Of a stretch of 46,031 bases of DNA, positions 500 to 21,785 are shown one piece after another (the first letter of the stretch is position 1; each line of letters begins with the position of its first letter). The notes below the pieces were generated by a model. The model saw only the letters and a program-made list of their open reading frames with translations, searched no databases and had not been told where the DNA came from. The translations under genes and the position numbers were made by a program. Source of the DNA: a virus; UHGV virus genome UHGV-2109381; one strand, written 5' to 3'.

Positions 500-587
500 G
501 GATAGTTGGCTGAGAGGCCGAAAGCAGTCGGTTGCTAACCGATAAACCGGAAACGGTTCACAGGTTCGAATCCTGTACTATCCGCCA
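500..587 (+). tRNA. tRNA-Ser (anticodon GCU), type II with a long variable arm.
   Basis: Acceptor ggatagt/actatcc. Anticodon stem gtcgg/ccgat with loop ttGCTaa. Long variable arm aaaccggaaacggttc. T-arm acagg-ttcgaat-cctgt. Discriminator g then CCA. Confidence 0.85.
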
Positions 588-593
588 CATTCA

Positions 594-670
594 GCACCAT
601 TAGCGTAATTGGATAGCGCAAGAGGCTTCTATCCTCTGGGTTTCAGGTTCGAATCCTGAATGGTGCACCA
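594..670 (+). tRNA. tRNA-Arg (anticodon UCU).
   Basis: Acceptor gcaccat/atggtgc. Anticodon stem agagg/cctct with loop ctTCTat. T-loop ttcgaat. 3' end ACCA. Confidence 0.85.
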
Positions 671-673
671 AAT

Positions 674-750
674 TCCAGTTTAGCTTAACTGGTTAAAGCA
701 CCCGACTCATAATCGGATGATTACAGGTTCGAATCCTGTCGCGGGAACCA
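674..750 (+). tRNA. tRNA-like gene with a CAU anticodon (Met or Ile2 type) and an imperfect acceptor stem. It may be a pseudo-tRNA.
   Basis: D-arm gctt-aactggtta-aagc. Anticodon arm cccga-ctCATaa-tcgga. T-arm acagg-ttcgaat-cctgt. 3' end cgcgggaACCA. The 5' strand tccagtt pairs poorly with the 3' strand cgcggga. Confidence 0.4.
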
Positions 751-17750: not shown

Positions 17751-18041
17751 ATGAAATGTGTCATTTTTGAGCTTGATGGTGTGCTGCGCGATGCTGAAGG
17801 AAATGCTATTGCTGGTAACGTTGCGCTGGCTAAGTCGCTCTACTCTGCCGGGCACGACGTCCTAATCATGAGGGCAAAGCATGCGTATGAGTGGCTGCAT
17901 GCTAACGATGTTTTCTATGATGACATTATGGCTTCGCACCAGCAGATTGACGCAGACAGGGTGGCAATGGCGGTCGTTTCTGATGACGTGATTTATGCCG
18001 CAATGCGAAATGCGGGGATTCACTGCTGGCTTTACAAATAG
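17751..18041 (+). CDS. Hypothetical protein with a degenerate HAD-like N-terminus, a moron opposing the packaging operon.
   Basis: 96 aa. The N-terminus reads MKCVIFELDGVL. It has its own promoter and a downstream hairpin at 18040-18057. Confidence 0.45.
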   Translation: MKCVIFELDGVLRDAEGNAIAGNVALAKSLYSAGHDVLIMRAKHAYEWLHANDVFYDDIMASHQQIDADRVAMAVVSDDVIYAAMRNAGIHCWLYK

Positions 18042-18056: not shown

Positions 18057-20591
18057 TTATCTCCTGCTCCGCCTAATCCATCCAGAGCCACGCTGTACGA
18101 TGTGATCGTTGCATGCATATCTGATTGCGTCAATGAAGTGGTTCCACGCATCCACAATATTTGTGAGCACGTTACCCGTCAGCTTGTCCACCTTGTAACT
18201 GTACATAGTGAACTCTTCCTGAGTCTGTGTGCAGCGGTCATGAATGATGATGCTGTCGCAACCCCTGAGCCAGGTTACACCATCCTCCACGCTCCCGGGC
18301 CACTTATTGCATGGATGGATATCAAATCCTGCGCGTTTGATGTGACTGATTGTTTCTGGCCGAGAGCAGTCCCCATACCATCTTGCCTTCCTGGAGAGTG
18401 GGAATGATTGCTCCATCGCTGTAGGTGTGTCGGTAATCTCAAGGCCTACACGGCCGTATTCGCGCGCGACGTAAAGGTTGCGGCGGTCATCAGGAAGTTT
18501 CTCAATGTAAACCTCAACCATCGCCGTTGCGTCCTGCGAGAATCCAAAGTCGATGCCAAAGTAAGGCCCATGCCATTCCGGCTTAACCTCGAAATCAGCA
18601 ACGCGCCACTTACCGCCAAATACCTGCTCATCATTACGCTTATTAAAGCGCCCACCCCACACCCATTGATAGCGGTCGAAGTCGGTCTCTTTCATGCGTT
18701 GCATTTGGCTTGGGAGCGGAGTATCCCAGAACCACGGATTGTCTGAGTAATTACACTCCATAATCAGGTTTTCATCATCCTCATAGATGCCGCCATTTTC
18801 GCGCAATTTATTATAAAAAGGCTCAACCCATATTTTCCACGTCGGGTCATGCTCTTTATTTGGGTTGAAGGTCACCCATATCTCTGACCCTTCAGCGCGG
18901 ACTGTTGGGGTGAGGATTTCCCAGCTTGTCTGGCTGACGTTTTCCGCCTCCTCGACCCAAGCTACTGTAATGCCAGCGAAGCCTTTTACGGTCGTCTGGT
19001 TGCGATACAGGCCTTTAAAGCGGAACTTTGCTTTCGTTACCTTGTGTGTTATTTCGTTGTTGATGACGCGAAACTCTTTTGTCTCGCCCTTCCTGTCAAT
19101 CTCGTCTTTCAGCTCCTGATATGAACTATCCTCAATAGACTGCTGAATCTCACGAAAACAAGCTATCCTGTCAGGCTTAAAGCGTGCACGCTCCGTAAGT
19201 ATTGTTGTTACTGTCCTTGTTTTTCCGCTGTTGTGTGTAACCGTGCCATCAGCAAGCAGGAAAAGATGATCGCCATCAATAGTGAACCCAGCGTATTCAC
19301 CATGCCCGACATAAGACAATGACACCTCAGTCATCTTTCCACGGGTTGACTTGGTTTTCTCTGCTATCTTCCTTTTTACTCGGCATGGGATTGTATGAAG
19401 GTCACCACTAACGAACACCTCCCATACGTCCTTTTCGTATATTCTTTTCTCACCTTTATATTCAAAGGTGACATCAGTCTTTTTGATTATGCTTGACTTG
19501 AAGCCAAGAGATCTTGCCACATCCATCAAAGAGAAGGCCATTTCTTTATTTATTGATGTGAAAGAATAGCTTTTCTTTTTCTGGTCATAATGCGAATCAG
19601 TATCCAATAGCCCAGCCAGAATCTGAAGTCTTACCTCTCTGCTGTTTTTGATATAGCAGTCAGGTATGTGTTTATTATTAATCACCCCAAGCTGCTGCAT
19701 TTTAGTTAGTAACGGGTTGGTGTTCTTCCCCATGCCAGCAGCTCGACCATTAGTTATCGCATAGACAGGGCATCTATCATCGTCGCGAACCTTTACCTGC
19801 ATCCCGTATTTGCTTGCCACGTTGTGAATGTAGTCAACTATCTCTGGATCAGGCGTGCATACTTCAACACCACGAGATGAACCATCACCTAACCATAAAC
19901 CAAGAAAGTACGGGTCAACTGGGACGCTTTGGTCATTAAAATCCCATCCTGTTCGCCACCCTTTAAAGACATGGCGGAACTTTTTGGAAGTTGCGCGCGA
20001 CAAATATTCTGAAACACCAATATTCAGTATTTCAGGTTCATTCGGGTAATAACGATAAATTCTTTTACCATCCGGTGTTTTTGTCTCGTCACTGATAGCA
20101 GATGGAATCTTTCGTAATGACAGTATGTGACTTGAGTTGACAGTGTAGTCATCAGCATATTTTTGATGAACCGTATACATGTCATCAAACCCCCGACAGA
20201 TGTTTAAAACATTTCGTGGTTTACTGTCTGGACCCATAACCTTATCGCCAACAACGATATCCTCTACGCGTTTTAGGCTACCATCAAACATCCTCACCAT
20301 CGTGCCGATGGCTAAGCATCCGCGCCCGCCAAACACAATCTTATTACGCTTGGGGTAAAGTAGCTTTTCCAGCTTTTCTGGTATCAGGTGATCAACGCCA
20401 ATATCAGAGTCGCTAACGTCATCAACTCCGCTTTGCGTCATTTTTAGTTTGCGAACAATCTGCTTATCTGTATTAACAACACCGAACACCGCAGATTCAG
20501 GCGCATCAATCACGCCATCGCCAATAATCTCTTCGAGTTTTTCAATTGCTGGTGCTGAGAGTCTTTTGCGTGCCATATATAGATTCCTCAT
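18057..20591 (-). CDS. Terminase large subunit (TerL) interrupted by an in-frame intein.
   Basis: The exteins give Walker A FGGRG|SGKTRTV. The C-terminal region (VTFNPN, WVEEAENV...) is nuclease-like. The 844-aa ORF minus a 363-aa intein leaves a ~481-aa terminase. Confidence 0.8.
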   Translation of the reverse strand: MRNLYMARKRLSAPAIEKLEEIIGDGVIDAPESAVFGVVNTDKQIVRKLKMTQSGVDDVSDSDIGVDHLIPEKLEKLLYPKRNKIVFGGRGCLAIGTMVRMFDGSLKRVEDIVVGDKVMGPDSKPRNVLNICRGFDDMYTVHQKYADDYTVNSSHILSLRKIPSAISDETKTPDGKRIYRYYPNEPEILNIGVSEYLSRATSKKFRHVFKGWRTGWDFNDQSVPVDPYFLGLWLGDGSSRGVEVCTPDPEIVDYIHNVASKYGMQVKVRDDDRCPVYAITNGRAAGMGKNTNPLLTKMQQLGVINNKHIPDCYIKNSREVRLQILAGLLDTDSHYDQKKKSYSFTSINKEMAFSLMDVARSLGFKSSIIKKTDVTFEYKGEKRIYEKDVWEVFVSGDLHTIPCRVKRKIAEKTKSTRGKMTEVSLSYVGHGEYAGFTIDGDHLFLLADGTVTHNSGKTRTVTTILTERARFKPDRIACFREIQQSIEDSSYQELKDEIDRKGETKEFRVINNEITHKVTKAKFRFKGLYRNQTTVKGFAGITVAWVEEAENVSQTSWEILTPTVRAEGSEIWVTFNPNKEHDPTWKIWVEPFYNKLRENGGIYEDDENLIMECNYSDNPWFWDTPLPSQMQRMKETDFDRYQWVWGGRFNKRNDEQVFGGKWRVADFEVKPEWHGPYFGIDFGFSQDATAMVEVYIEKLPDDRRNLYVAREYGRVGLEITDTPTAMEQSFPLSRKARWYGDCSRPETISHIKRAGFDIHPCNKWPGSVEDGVTWLRGCDSIIIHDRCTQTQEEFTMYSYKVDKLTGNVLTNIVDAWNHFIDAIRYACNDHIVQRGSGWIRRSRR
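19230..20318 (-). mobile_element. Intein (Hint domain plus LAGLIDADG homing endonuclease) inserted in the TerL P-loop.
   Basis: It starts with Cys (GGRG/CLAIGTMV) and ends ...LLADGTVTHN/SGKT. Two LAGLIDADG motifs are present: FLGLWLGDGSS and LAGLLDTDSH. Confidence 0.8.
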
Positions 20592-20675
20592 CAGGGCATC
20601 ATTGAAGTGAATGCGGCAGGCGGTGATGAGTCGCTTTTCGGGTGCCCCCTAGCCGCATTGATTATTATAAATCAG

Positions 20676-21152
20676 TTACTGTTGCTGCTCCAGTAATTTC
20701 TCCAGCCGCTCAAGGCGCACCGCAAGCTCTGTTACCTCTTCGATATCAAGCCCGGCCTTCAGAATGTCTGCCATCATCTTGCCAATGTCGGCTGGAACAA
20801 CGCCAGTAGAGACGCCCTTGATAATCGCATCCATCTTCTGCACAGGCGTACCGTCAGAAGGGAAATCAAACTCAACAGGTGGCGCTACAGGCTTTGGAAT
20901 TGGGTTCAGTCGCAGGAATATCTCACGCAGCATGCCGGTAGCCTGAGCGTCTTCGCATGTCATCGCCTTGTTGATGTAGTACGTGACGAATTCAATCTCA
21001 TTCATCGGCGTATTTGCAGCACGTAATGCTTCAAGAAGAACTGTTCTGTAGCTTTTTCCTCTTGGTGGCGGCTGATTGCTGGATGAAAATTTGTGCTTAG
21101 GGTTCGGATTTGCCATTTTATATGTGTCCTTTGAGTAACTCACATAGGACAT
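20676..21152 (-). CDS. Terminase small subunit, putative. The start may instead be the internal ATG at 21116.
   Basis: ~150 aa. A basic N-terminus (KHKFSSSNQPPPRGKSYR) is followed by an alpha-helical domain. It lies immediately upstream of TerL. Confidence 0.5.
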   Translation of the reverse strand: MSYVSYSKDTYKMANPNPKHKFSSSNQPPPRGKSYRTVLLEALRAANTPMNEIEFVTYYINKAMTCEDAQATGMLREIFLRLNPIPKPVAPPVEFDFPSDGTPVQKMDAIIKGVSTGVVPADIGKMMADILKAGLDIEEVTELAVRLERLEKLLEQQQ

Positions 21153-21233: not shown

Positions 21234-21785
21234 TTATACACCATGATTATCGTGAAACCCATACTCTTCTTCTGCTTTCTTTCTTGCCAGCTCCGCATCA
21301 AGTATGTCGTTGAAATATCCAAGATGTATGAACTTCTTGTTAACCCTTATTTTTGCTTGCCACTTTCGCTTATCCTTCCTCCAGTGTACCCCAGTTACTC
21401 CACTACTATTGCTAGAGTACTTAGATTTGTTTTTTAGATTCCCTCCCCTATTTGTCAGCCTGAGATTTTCAATCCTGTTATCACCAGGGTTATGGTTTAT
21501 ATGGTCAATCTCCAATCCACCAGTTATAGGGCCATTATGCATTTCCCATATGATTCTGTGCGCAAAGTATTTTCGTCCAGAGCACCAAATAGATGTATAT
21601 CCTTTTGACCCTGAGTGGCCTGCAACCTTACCTTTTCTTGCCTTGCGGCCATCATCCTCGCGCCATATCAGGTTTCCGTTGTTGTATTCAAACAGCTCAT
21701 TCCAGTCTATTCTTTTCATCACACTTACCGCTCCTGCACCACAAATCATTGCGTGGGGATTTAACATGAACCACCTCAATCGCAT
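21234..21785 (-). CDS. HNH-AP2 homing endonuclease, copy 3 (intact HNH and AP2 domains).
   Basis: HNH region YFAHRIIWEMHNGPITGGLEIDHINHNPGDNRIENLR. AP2 region SGVTGVHWRKDKRKWQAKIRVNKKFIHLGYF. Possible starts are 21785, 21767 (GAGGTGG SD) or 21719. Confidence 0.8.
   Translation of the reverse strand: MRLRWFMLNPHAMICGAGAVSVMKRIDWNELFEYNNGNLIWREDDGRKARKGKVAGHSGSKGYTSIWCSGRKYFAHRIIWEMHNGPITGGLEIDHINHNPGDNRIENLRLTNRGGNLKNKSKYSSNSSGVTGVHWRKDKRKWQAKIRVNKKFIHLGYFNDILDAELARKKAEEEYGFHDNHGV

What the first reader, a model, noticed from the sequence alone, without database searches (positions are those of the whole stretch)
19230..20318. LAGLIDADG intein inserted in the Walker A P-loop of the large terminase
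The TerL ORF (18057..20591) reads ...KIVFGGRG | C-LAIGTMV...(363 aa)...LLADGTVTHN | SGKTRTVT... Removing the insert restores the canonical P-loop GGRGSGKT. The insert has an N-terminal Cys, a C-terminal His-Asn followed by Ser, and two LAGLIDADG blocks (LGLWLGDGSS, LAGLLDTDSH).

Protein splicing would therefore be required before any packaging ATPase activity. The intein-free allele would be an empty homing site.
Basis: partly seen in the sequence, partly recalled or inferred. Interest (0 to 1): 0.55.

Follow-up and report, generated by a model that had tools for sequence, protein, structure and literature searches.

The report
Mobile intein splitting phage terminase P-loop
The phage's DNA-packaging motor gene is interrupted, exactly inside its ATP-binding loop, by a self-splicing protein element that carries its own homing nuclease; it is real and shows signs of recent horizontal spread, but it is an unannotated example of a well-known kind.

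Summary
Confirmed. It carries a 363-aa in-frame insert at exactly 19230..20318, between G and S of the Walker A motif GGRG|SGKT.

The insert is a canonical class-1 intein with a PI-SceI-type LAGLIDADG homing endonuclease. Splicing residues Cys1, N61xxH64, His362-Asn363 and Ser+1 are all present. So are the nuclease residues D145, K216 and D241. Pfam matches Hom_end_hint at 7e-21. The AlphaFold model (pLDDT 93.6) matches PI-SceI at TM 0.75.

Intein-less relatives such as Klebsiella phage KP591P1 align across a clean junction. The intein sits in a ~1.7-kb island of low synonymous divergence (dS 0.07-0.17, against 1.15 in the rest of terL versus Salmonella phage Segz_1). It is also better conserved than its exteins in a distant TerL. 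The endonuclease core is under purifying selection. Together these indicate recent homing-type transfer with co-converted flanks.

No cognate empty site was found: intein-less alleles differ at 16-19 of 48 junction bases. Seven GenBank phages carry this intein, annotated only as "terminase large subunit". TerL and P-loop inteins are already well documented, so this is a new member of a known kind.

The parts
18057..20576 (-). terL precursor CDS: 839 aa plus stop, 96.4 kDa. An alternative upstream ATG lies at 20591.
   Evidence: ORF. Pfam Terminase_3 and Terminase_3C. NCBIfam TIGR01547 PBSX-family TerL 126.9 bits against a cutoff of 105. GAGGA Shine-Dalgarno before ATG 20576. Relatives annotate this start.
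20319..20576 (-). N-extein, 86 aa, ending in the first half of Walker A (GGRG = 20319..20330).
   Evidence: It is 100% identical at protein level in KpV2811, pIS4-A and Segz_1, but only 56-58% identical in intein-less relatives.
19230..20318 (-). Intein: 363 aa, 41.1 kDa, class 1, PI-SceI-type, with a LAGLIDADG homing endonuclease.
   Evidence: Pfam Hom_end_hint, Hom_end and LAGLIDADG_3. PI-SceI by phmmer at 5.5e-21. AF2 model pLDDT 93.6. Foldseek to 1lwt_A E 3e-28, TMq 0.75.
20316..20318 (-). Cys1 codon (TGC), the block A nucleophile.
   Evidence: Invariant in the 72-sequence family alignment.
20127..20138 (-). Block B, N61-S-S-H64 (NxxH as in PI-SceI N76/H79; the PI-SceI numbering is from my own knowledge).
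   Evidence: H64 is invariant and N61 is >=90% conserved.
19419..19928 (-). LAGLIDADG endonuclease core, intein aa ~131-300. Motif 1 is LGLWLGDG (19881..19904, catalytic D145). Motif 2 is LAGLLDTDS (19593..19619, catalytic D241). K216 is equivalent to PI-SceI K301.
   Evidence: Residue correspondence to PI-SceI D218, D326 and K301 read from the alignment. D145 and K216 are invariant and D241 is >=90% conserved. dN/dS 0.15-0.26.
19230..19295 (-). Blocks F and G, YAGFTIDGDHLFLLADGTVTHN, ending in His362-Asn363.
   Evidence: H362 and N363 are invariant. TIGR01443 intein_Cterm 16.2 bits against a cutoff of 15.6.
18060..19229 (-). C-extein, 390 aa. It starts with Ser+1 (AGC, 19227..19229) and the second half of Walker A (SGKT = 19218..19229), then the rest of the ATPase and the RNase-H-like nuclease domain.
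   Evidence: 97.4% aa identity to intein-less KP591P1 TerL.
19000..20700 (.). Approximate island of low divergence: the intein, ~230 nt of C-extein, the whole N-extein and ~100 nt upstream. This is the inferred co-transferred (co-converted) tract.
   Evidence: Differences per 100 nt against Segz_1 are 0-11 inside the island and 10-77 outside. dS is 0.07 (N-extein), 0.17 (intein) and 1.15 (C-extein). Divergence from intein-less KP591P1 falls from 29 to 5 per 90 nt moving away from the junction.

Best explanation
terL is translated as a 96-kDa precursor in which a 363-aa class-1 intein separates GGRG from SGKT of the Walker A P-loop. The intein folds as a Hint splicing domain plus a two-motif LAGLIDADG nuclease domain, like yeast PI-SceI. 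It would excise itself by the standard four steps. Cys1 makes an N-S acyl shift. Ser+1 attacks in a transesterification. Asn363 cyclises, assisted by His362. An O-N shift then completes the peptide bond. The products are a 55-kDa TerL with an intact GGRGSGKT loop and a free 41-kDa endonuclease. In a co-infection, the free endonuclease would cut an intein-less terL allele at the P-loop-coding sequence. Repair from the intein-bearing genome would then copy in the intein plus some hundreds of bases of flanking extein. Shown here: the anatomy, the conserved catalytic residues, the fold, the clean junction, the island of recent common ancestry centred on the intein, and purifying selection on the nuclease. 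Inferred: that splicing occurs, that the precursor is ATPase-dead, and that the nuclease is still active.
For: Anatomy and residues:
- The coordinates are exact.
- Pfam, PDB and NCBIfam matches support intein identity.
- In an alignment of 72 family members, C1, H64, D145, K216, D239, H362 and N363 are invariant, and all are present here.

Fold:
- The AF2 model has pLDDT 93.6 and pTM 0.90.
- Its best PDB matches are all PI-SceI (E 3e-28, TMq 0.75), followed by archaeal VMA and PI-PfuI inteins and I-DmoI.

Clean junction:
- Intein-less KP591P1 TerL aligns as GGRG|SSKT with no residues lost or gained.
- 118 of the 120 best TerL homologues carry no intein: lengths 274-489 aa, mostly 458-489, with an uninterrupted GGRGS[GAS]K[TS]-type loop. 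The exceptions are P0187, which has this intein, and P0212, which has a different Hint-like insertion in the nuclease domain.

Mobility:
- dS against Segz_1 is 0.07 (N-extein), 0.17 (intein) and 1.15 (C-extein).
- The low-divergence island spans about 19000-20700.
- In the distant TerL P0187 the intein sits at the same site. It is 78.8% identical, against 43.9% and 66.1% for the exteins.
- The intein is 42.7% GC, against 49.5% for the C-extein.
- All intein-bearing alleles share the AGC Ser+1 codon and a near-identical 23-bp junction core. All intein-less alleles use TCN.

Selection:
- dN/dS is 0.11-0.25 for the intein and 0.15-0.26 for the LAGLIDADG core.
Against: - No splicing or cleavage data exist for this intein.
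- No cognate empty homing site was found in GenBank phages or among close relatives in IMG/VR. Current homing therefore cannot be demonstrated, and the element may be fixed in its lineage.
- LAGLIDADG motif 2 ends D-S here (D-A in P0187), where >=90% of family members have D-G. This could weaken the nuclease.
- The similarity island could come from ordinary mosaic recombination at terL rather than nuclease-initiated repair.
- The pairwise dN/dS values rest on few substitutions (12-52 per comparison).
Confidence: 0.9

Rival explanations
1. The intein still splices, but its homing endonuclease is no longer active on any available target. The element is vertically inherited and fixed in one terL lineage. 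The similarity island reflects ordinary phage mosaic recombination in which terL modules are swapped, not nuclease-driven homing.
For: - No cognate empty site exists among 33 intein-less GenBank records or among close IMG/VR relatives.
- Motif 2 has D-S instead of the family's D-G.
- The upstream island boundary near 20700 is also a mosaic junction against KpV2811, where terL is nearly identical but the upstream ORF is ~40% divergent. Recombination therefore happens there regardless of the intein.
- A free-standing HNH nuclease gene lies nearby and could drive exchange instead.
Against: - The island is centred on the intein, with co-converted tracts on both sides.
- The LAGLIDADG core has dN/dS 0.15-0.26, and against P0187 dN is 0.19 with dS saturated. 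This is unexpected for a dead nuclease.
- The same intein sits in a TerL whose exteins are only 44-66% identical.
Confidence: 0.25
2. The insert is a native, non-splicing Hint/LAGLIDADG-like domain of this TerL, or a bacterial intein-like domain that only cleaves. The 96-kDa protein would then be the working terminase.
For: None beyond the absence of experimental splicing data. GenBank and RefSeq annotate the whole ORF simply as terminase large subunit.
Against: - The insert bisects the Walker A loop.
- Close homologues lack it with a residue-exact junction.
- 118 of the 120 best TerL homologues carry no intein.
- All class-1 splicing residues, including His-Asn and Ser+1, are present.
Confidence: 0.02
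3. Besides being selfish, the intein acts as a conditional switch, responding for example to redox state or metal through Cys1 and other cysteines. It would delay terminase ATPase activity until late in infection.
For: Only by analogy: conditional splicing of P-loop inteins in RadA and DnaB is described in papers listed (PMC4513877, PMC6195587). The intein has six cysteines: C1, 41, 154, 183, 221 and 312.
Against: Nothing in the sequence was tested or is testable here. Most closely related phages package DNA without the intein.
Confidence: 0.1

Closest known systems
PI-SceI (Saccharomyces cerevisiae VMA1 intein; Pfam Hom_end_hint PF05203 plus Hom_end PF05204)
   Same: - It has the same two-domain architecture: a Hint splicing domain with a DNA-recognition region, plus a two-motif LAGLIDADG nuclease.
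- It shares Cys1, NxxH, the terminal His-Asn, and the nuclease residues D218, D326 and K301 (D145, D241 and K216 here).
- It is the best sequence match (5.5e-21) and the best structure match (TMq 0.75).
- Its host is also a P-loop ATPase.
   Different: - Sequence identity is only ~23%.
- This intein is 363 aa against 454 aa.
- The +1 residue is Ser rather than Cys.
- The host is a phage terminase rather than the eukaryotic V-ATPase A subunit.
- Motif 2 ends D-S rather than D-G.
Mycobacteriophage TerL P-loop inteins (TerL1-a and TerL1-b; Kelley et al. 2016, PMC5050341)
   Same: Both are inteins in the Walker A loop of a phage large terminase. [quoted passage not shown]
   Different: - Those inteins are in Terminase_1 and Terminase_6 family TerLs of actinophages. 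The paper states that only those families carried inteins.
- This one is in a Terminase_3 (PBSX family) TerL of enterobacterial siphophages.
- The classic site is GK|T. Here the site is three residues upstream, G|SGKT.
Other Terminase_3 TerL inteins from metagenomes (P0005, P0022, P0025, P0027, P0051)
   Same: They share the host family, the P-loop location and the PI-SceI-type intein family, at 36-41% identity.
   Different: They are inserted at GGRGSGK|S, the classic register, not at GGRG|SGKT. Whether they form one clade with this intein is unresolved (44/200 bootstrap).
Intein-containing helicase precursors of Salmonella Jersey-like and Klebsiella JD001-like siphophages
   Same: They belong to the same intein family (37-39% identity over the full length) and occur in phages of the same host genera. 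Some are already annotated as inteins in GenBank.
   Different: The host protein is a helicase rather than a terminase, and the lineage is different.
Inteins proposed to move between the P-loops of unrelated proteins (Anaeramoeba cluster 1; PMC10710043)
   Same: Related inteins occupy Walker A motifs of unrelated NTPases. Here the hosts include thymidine kinase, DnaB, PhoH, ABC ATPases, RecA, RuvB, AAA+ proteins, dTMP kinase and TerL.
   Different: Those are class-3 inteins in a eukaryote. This family is class 1, PI-SceI-type, from phage and prokaryotic metagenomes, and it uses two registers: GK|[ST] and G|[ST]GK.

Membership tests
Class 1 intein | An in-frame insertion whose removal restores a contiguous, conserved host protein. 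| tested here: met
   The junction against intein-less KP591P1 TerL is residue-exact. Terminase_3 rises from 109.8 to 126.7 bits on removal. 118 of the 120 best homologues carry no intein.
Class 1 intein | Block A N-terminal Cys/Ser nucleophile. | tested here: met
   Cys1 (TGC, 20316..20318). Invariant in 72 family members.
Class 1 intein | Block B (T/N)xxH. | tested here: met
   N61-S-S-H64. H64 is invariant and N61 is >=90% conserved.
Class 1 intein | Block G penultimate His, terminal Asn, and a +1 Ser/Thr/Cys. | tested here: met
   H362, N363 and Ser+1. TIGR01443 intein_Cterm 16.2 bits against a cutoff of 15.6.
Class 1 intein | Hint fold. | tested here: met
   Pfam Hom_end_hint 7.4e-21. AF2 model pLDDT 93.6. 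Matches PI-SceI, and the Prp8 mini-inteins at TMt 0.83-0.86.
Class 1 intein | Autocatalytic protein splicing that yields ligated exteins. | not testable with these tools
   Needs expression with SDS-PAGE or mass spectrometry.
LAGLIDADG homing endonuclease (two-motif, intein-borne) | Two LAGLIDADG helices, each ending in a catalytic acidic residue. | tested here: met
   LGLWLGD145G and LAGLLDTD241S align to PI-SceI D218 and D326. Caveat: the final Gly of motif 2 is Ser.
LAGLIDADG homing endonuclease (two-motif, intein-borne) | The endonuclease fold. | tested here: met
   Pfam Hom_end 1.3e-10 and LAGLIDADG_3 3.7e-8. Foldseek matches the nuclease domains of PI-SceI and PI-PfuI, and I-DmoI.
LAGLIDADG homing endonuclease (two-motif, intein-borne) | Site-specific cleavage of the intein-less allele, and homing. 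| tested here: inconclusive
   Indirect support comes from the dS island and flank co-conversion, from the intein being better conserved than its exteins in P0187, and from dN/dS 0.15-0.26. However, no cognate empty site was found and there is no biochemistry.
Terminase_3 / PBSX-family large terminase | An N-terminal ATPase domain with Walker A, plus a C-terminal RNase-H-like nuclease domain. | tested here: met
   Terminase_3 1.1e-36 and Terminase_3C 7.2e-14 on the spliced sequence. TIGR01547 is above its cutoff. PHROG terminase families match. The portal gene lies downstream.

The most novel reading that the evidence does not exclude
This intein may belong to a large, mostly unannotated clade of PI-SceI-type class-1 inteins specialised for DNA that encodes Walker A loops. 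The clade would spread non-allelically among unrelated NTPase genes of phages and bacteria. Nearly all of the 120 listed homologues (of 254 hits) whose flanks could be read are P-loop insertions. They use two registers three residues apart, GK|[ST] and G|[ST]GK. The terL copy here uses the rarer G|SGKT register, while other Terminase_3 inteins use GK|S. This could mean a 9-bp register shift within one P-loop, or an independent capture from another NTPase.
Probability: 0.3. Interest if true: 0.5.

Novelty: new member of a known kind. Interest (0 to 1): 0.33.

Why it matters
Practical consequences:
- Seven deposited phages of Klebsiella, Salmonella, Aeromonas and Vibrio, several of them studied for therapy, carry this intein annotated only as "terminase large subunit". 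TerL-based phylogenies and length-based quality checks of these phages are therefore distorted.
- Virion production in these phages would depend on a protein-splicing step.

Biological value:
- The locus is a clean natural example of intein spread with co-converted flanks between diverged terminase genes in enterobacterial phages. An earlier survey had remarked on the absence of inteins from the hosts themselves (E. coli, Salmonella; PMC5050341).
- It offers a tractable system for testing homing and P-loop targeting: lytic phages on easy hosts, intein-less sister phages available, and a predicted ~23-bp target.

It does not change concepts. TerL inteins and P-loop inteins are both established.

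Tried and rejected
- Search for a cognate empty homing site. A degenerate scan of IMG/VR for the uninterrupted GGNGGNCGNGGAAGCGGNAARAC found 32 loci. All are in TerLs <=40% identical or in unrelated genes. A 150-nt spliced-junction query against GenBank phages found only intein-less alleles of <=74% identity and split matches in intein-bearing phages.
- Attempt to decide whether the Terminase_3 inteins in the two registers form one clade. The Biopython NJ tree grouped them, but a bootstrap gave 44/200 and the base tree on Kimura distances did not recover the group. This is unresolved and is not used as evidence.
- The native-domain reading was rejected on the clean junction.
- Search for a second intein or Hint paralogue in the window. 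tblastn found none.
- Check whether papers on the related phages mention the intein. The BUCT610 paper does not, and literature searches on Klebsiella or Salmonella phage terminase inteins returned only other phage groups.
- The NCBIfam intein models barely detect it (16.2 bits against a 15.6 cutoff; the N-terminal model did not match). This probably explains the missing annotation.
- The extein search did not return the near-identical intein-bearing proteins. This is probably a word-filter or clustering effect, so intein frequency was taken from BLAST of GenBank phages instead.
Full report
**1. Observation**

The window holds an 844-aa ORF at 18057..20591, on the minus strand. Translation gives ...KIVFGGRG|CLAIGTMV...(363 aa)...DGTVTHN|SGKTRTVT....

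The likely true start is the second ATG, at 20576. A GAGGA sequence lies 8 nt upstream of it, and KpV2811, pIS4-A and Segz_1 are all annotated from that Met. From that start the sizes are:

| Product | Length | Mass |
|---|---|---|
| Precursor | 839 aa | 96.4 kDa |
| Spliced TerL | 476 aa | 55.3 kDa |
| Intein | 363 aa | 41.1 kDa |

**2. What the insert is**

Pfam places three domains on the insert: Hom_end_hint at residues 1-87 (7.4e-21), Hom_end at 218-281 (1.3e-10) and LAGLIDADG_3 (3.7e-8). With the insert removed, the remaining sequence scores better on Terminase_3 (126.7 against 109.8 bits), and the match now begins at profile position 3 instead of 12. Terminase_3C is also present. PHROGs and NCBIfam agree on a PBSX-type large terminase.

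The closest solved structures by sequence are all PI-SceI, the yeast VMA1 intein (5.5e-21). The alignment runs from Cys1 to the terminal His-Asn. Reading that alignment gives these correspondences to the PI-SceI nuclease residues:

| This intein | PI-SceI |
|---|---|
| D145 | D218 |
| D241 | D326 |
| K216 | K301 |

In an alignment with 71 homologous inteins, C1, H64, D145, K216, D239, H362 and N363 are invariant, and all are present here. N61 and D241 are >=90% conserved. One departure stands out: LAGLIDADG motif 2 ends D-S where >=90% of the family has D-G.

An AlphaFold2 model built from that alignment is confident (pLDDT 93.6, pTM 0.90). Its best PDB matches are eleven PI-SceI chains (E down to 3e-28, TMq 0.75). 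Archaeal VMA inteins, PI-PfuI, Prp8 mini-inteins and I-DmoI follow.

The element is therefore a canonical class-1 intein carrying a two-motif LAGLIDADG homing endonuclease.

**3. Insertion or native domain?**

The window is a Roufvirus-like siphophage genome. Over its first 25 kb (the only part queried) it is 92-94% identical, across about 70% of that stretch, to Aeromonas phage pIS4-A, Vibrio phage pYD38-A and Klebsiella virus KpV2811. These three phages, plus Salmonella phages Segz_1, ST44, ST46 and ST65, carry the same intein at the same site. All of them are annotated only as "terminase large subunit".

Klebsiella phage KP591P1 has a 476-aa TerL whose C-extein is 97.4% identical to the window's. 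It reads GGRG|SSKT with no residue gained or lost at the junction.

Of the 120 best homologues of the spliced TerL, 118 carry no intein. Their lengths run from 274 to 489 aa, mostly 458-489. Their Walker A loops read GGRGSGKT, GGRGSAKT, GGRGSSKT and similar. The two exceptions are P0187, which carries this intein, and P0212, which carries a different Hint-like insertion in the nuclease domain.

**4. Evidence for mobility**

(a) Synonymous divergence from Segz_1 differs sharply between parts of the gene:

| Region | dS vs Segz_1 |
|---|---|
| N-extein | 0.07 |
| Intein | 0.17 |
| C-extein | 1.15 |

- Per-100-nt difference counts show a ~1.7-kb island of similarity at about 19000-20700.
- The island covers the intein, about 230 nt of C-extein, the whole N-extein and about 100 nt upstream.
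- Flanks on both sides are 10-77% divergent.

(b) Against intein-less KP591P1, divergence is greatest next to the junction, at 29 differences in the first 90 nt of C-extein.
- It decays to about 5 per 90 nt further along.
- The N-extein is only 58% identical at protein level.
- Similarity resumes in the upstream gene, at 94%.

(c) A metagenomic phage (P0187, locus L009) has the intein at the same GGRG|SGKT site in a much more distant TerL.
- The intein is 78.8% identical, against 43.9% and 66.1% for the exteins.

(d) All five intein-bearing alleles examined share AGC for Ser+1 and a near-identical 23-bp core, GGCGGNCGCGGA|AGCGGNAAAAC.
- All seven intein-less alleles examined use TCN for that Ser and differ at 16-19 of 48 flanking bases.
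- This holds even for alleles that encode the same GGRGSGKT loop.

(e) The intein is 42.7% GC and the N-extein 44.7%, against 49.5% for the C-extein and 47.7% for the window.

(f) dN/dS is 0.11-0.25 for the intein and 0.15-0.26 for the LAGLIDADG core.
- Against P0187 the core has dN 0.19 with dS saturated.
- The nuclease has therefore been under purifying selection.

Together these results fit homing with co-conversion of flanks. They do not prove that the nuclease is active today.

**5. What was not found**

No cognate empty site turned up. The 150-nt spliced junction finds only diverged intein-less alleles (<=74% identity) in GenBank phages. The exact core occurs uninterrupted in IMG/VR only in TerLs <=40% identical or in unrelated genes. 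The sampled intein-free alleles, however, look like diverged and possibly resistant sites.

**6. Wider family**

The intein has 254 homologues at E <= 1e-5, typically 35-44% identical. Nearly all of the 120 listed whose flanks could be read are inserted in Walker A loops of diverse NTPases. The hosts include thymidine kinase, DnaB, PhoH, ABC ATPases, RecA, RuvB, AAA+ proteins, dTMP kinase, SF2 helicases and Terminase_3 TerLs.

Most sit at the classic GK|[ST] position. A minority, including this one, sit three residues upstream at G|[ST]GK. The other Terminase_3 inteins (P0005, P0022, P0025, P0027) use GK|S. Whether they share a clade with this intein is unresolved: bootstrap support is 44/200, while window plus P0187 is 200/200. 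Related inteins are also common in helicases of Salmonella and Klebsiella siphophages, where some are annotated as inteins.

**7. Comparison with the literature**

- Terminases are described as a common target of intein insertion in phages, and P-loops as a hot spot (PMC4760082).
[quoted passage not shown] That survey found them only in Terminase_1 and Terminase_6 families, at GK|T or one residue away (PMC5050341).
- Movement of inteins between P-loops of unrelated proteins has been proposed for Anaeramoeba class-3 inteins (PMC10710043).
- I found no paper describing the intein in this phage group.

**8. Verdict**

The observation and the interpretation are both correct. The element is a new, unannotated member of a known kind.

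Three features go beyond the routine:
- the host family (Terminase_3) and the host range (enterobacterial siphophages);
- the less common G|SGKT register;
- an unusually clear co-conversion footprint.

The mechanism of splicing before ATPase function, followed by homing through the LAGLIDADG nuclease, is inferred from family knowledge. It still needs the experiments listed under next steps.

Noticed in passing
window 21237..21785 (-), within the 21244..21759 insertion: A ~516-nt insertion is absent from all eight relatives compared: every alignment jumps from 21243 to 21760. It encodes a 183-aa HNH_3 endonuclease (Pfam 1.7e-18; PHROG 99 4e-65). This is a free-standing homing-endonuclease gene two genes upstream of terL, so this phage carries two mobile nuclease elements within 2.5 kb.
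   Followed up: partly
window 500..750 (+): A tRNA cluster: Ser(GCT), Arg(TCT) and Met(CAT). tRNA-Ser(GCU) reads AGC, the codon used for the intein's +1 Ser in every intein-bearing allele, whereas intein-less alleles use TCN. This is probably coincidence.
   Followed up: no
window ~20620..21150 (ORF 20679..21152, -, PHROG 9747, unknown function; possibly the small terminase by position): Against KpV2811 this upstream ORF is ~40% divergent, while terL next to it is nearly identical (0 differences over 20023..20622). Against pIS4-A and KP591P1 the ORF is 94-97% identical. There is a recurrent mosaic junction in the terL-upstream intergenic region.
   Followed up: partly
P0212 (558-aa TerL homologue): It carries a different Hint-like insertion in the C-terminal nuclease domain (...DKDNH|CIAEGELVTTSKGD...). 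This would be a second intein insertion site in Terminase_3-family TerLs.
   Followed up: no
L002 4421..4576 (KP591P1) and equivalents in L005, L006 and L008: Four of the five intein-less relatives examined (KP591P1, GP-1, VLCpiS13c, BUCT610) have an extra 156-nt ORF overlapping the terL start. DP01 is the exception, and the intein-bearing phages and the window also lack the ORF. The whole 5' module of terL differs between most intein-plus and intein-minus lineages.
   Followed up: no
window 17751..18041 (+): A 96-aa ORF on the opposite strand, immediately downstream of terL. It matches a polynucleotide-kinase PHROG (1.4e-12) and is annotated as such in phage DP01.
   Followed up: no
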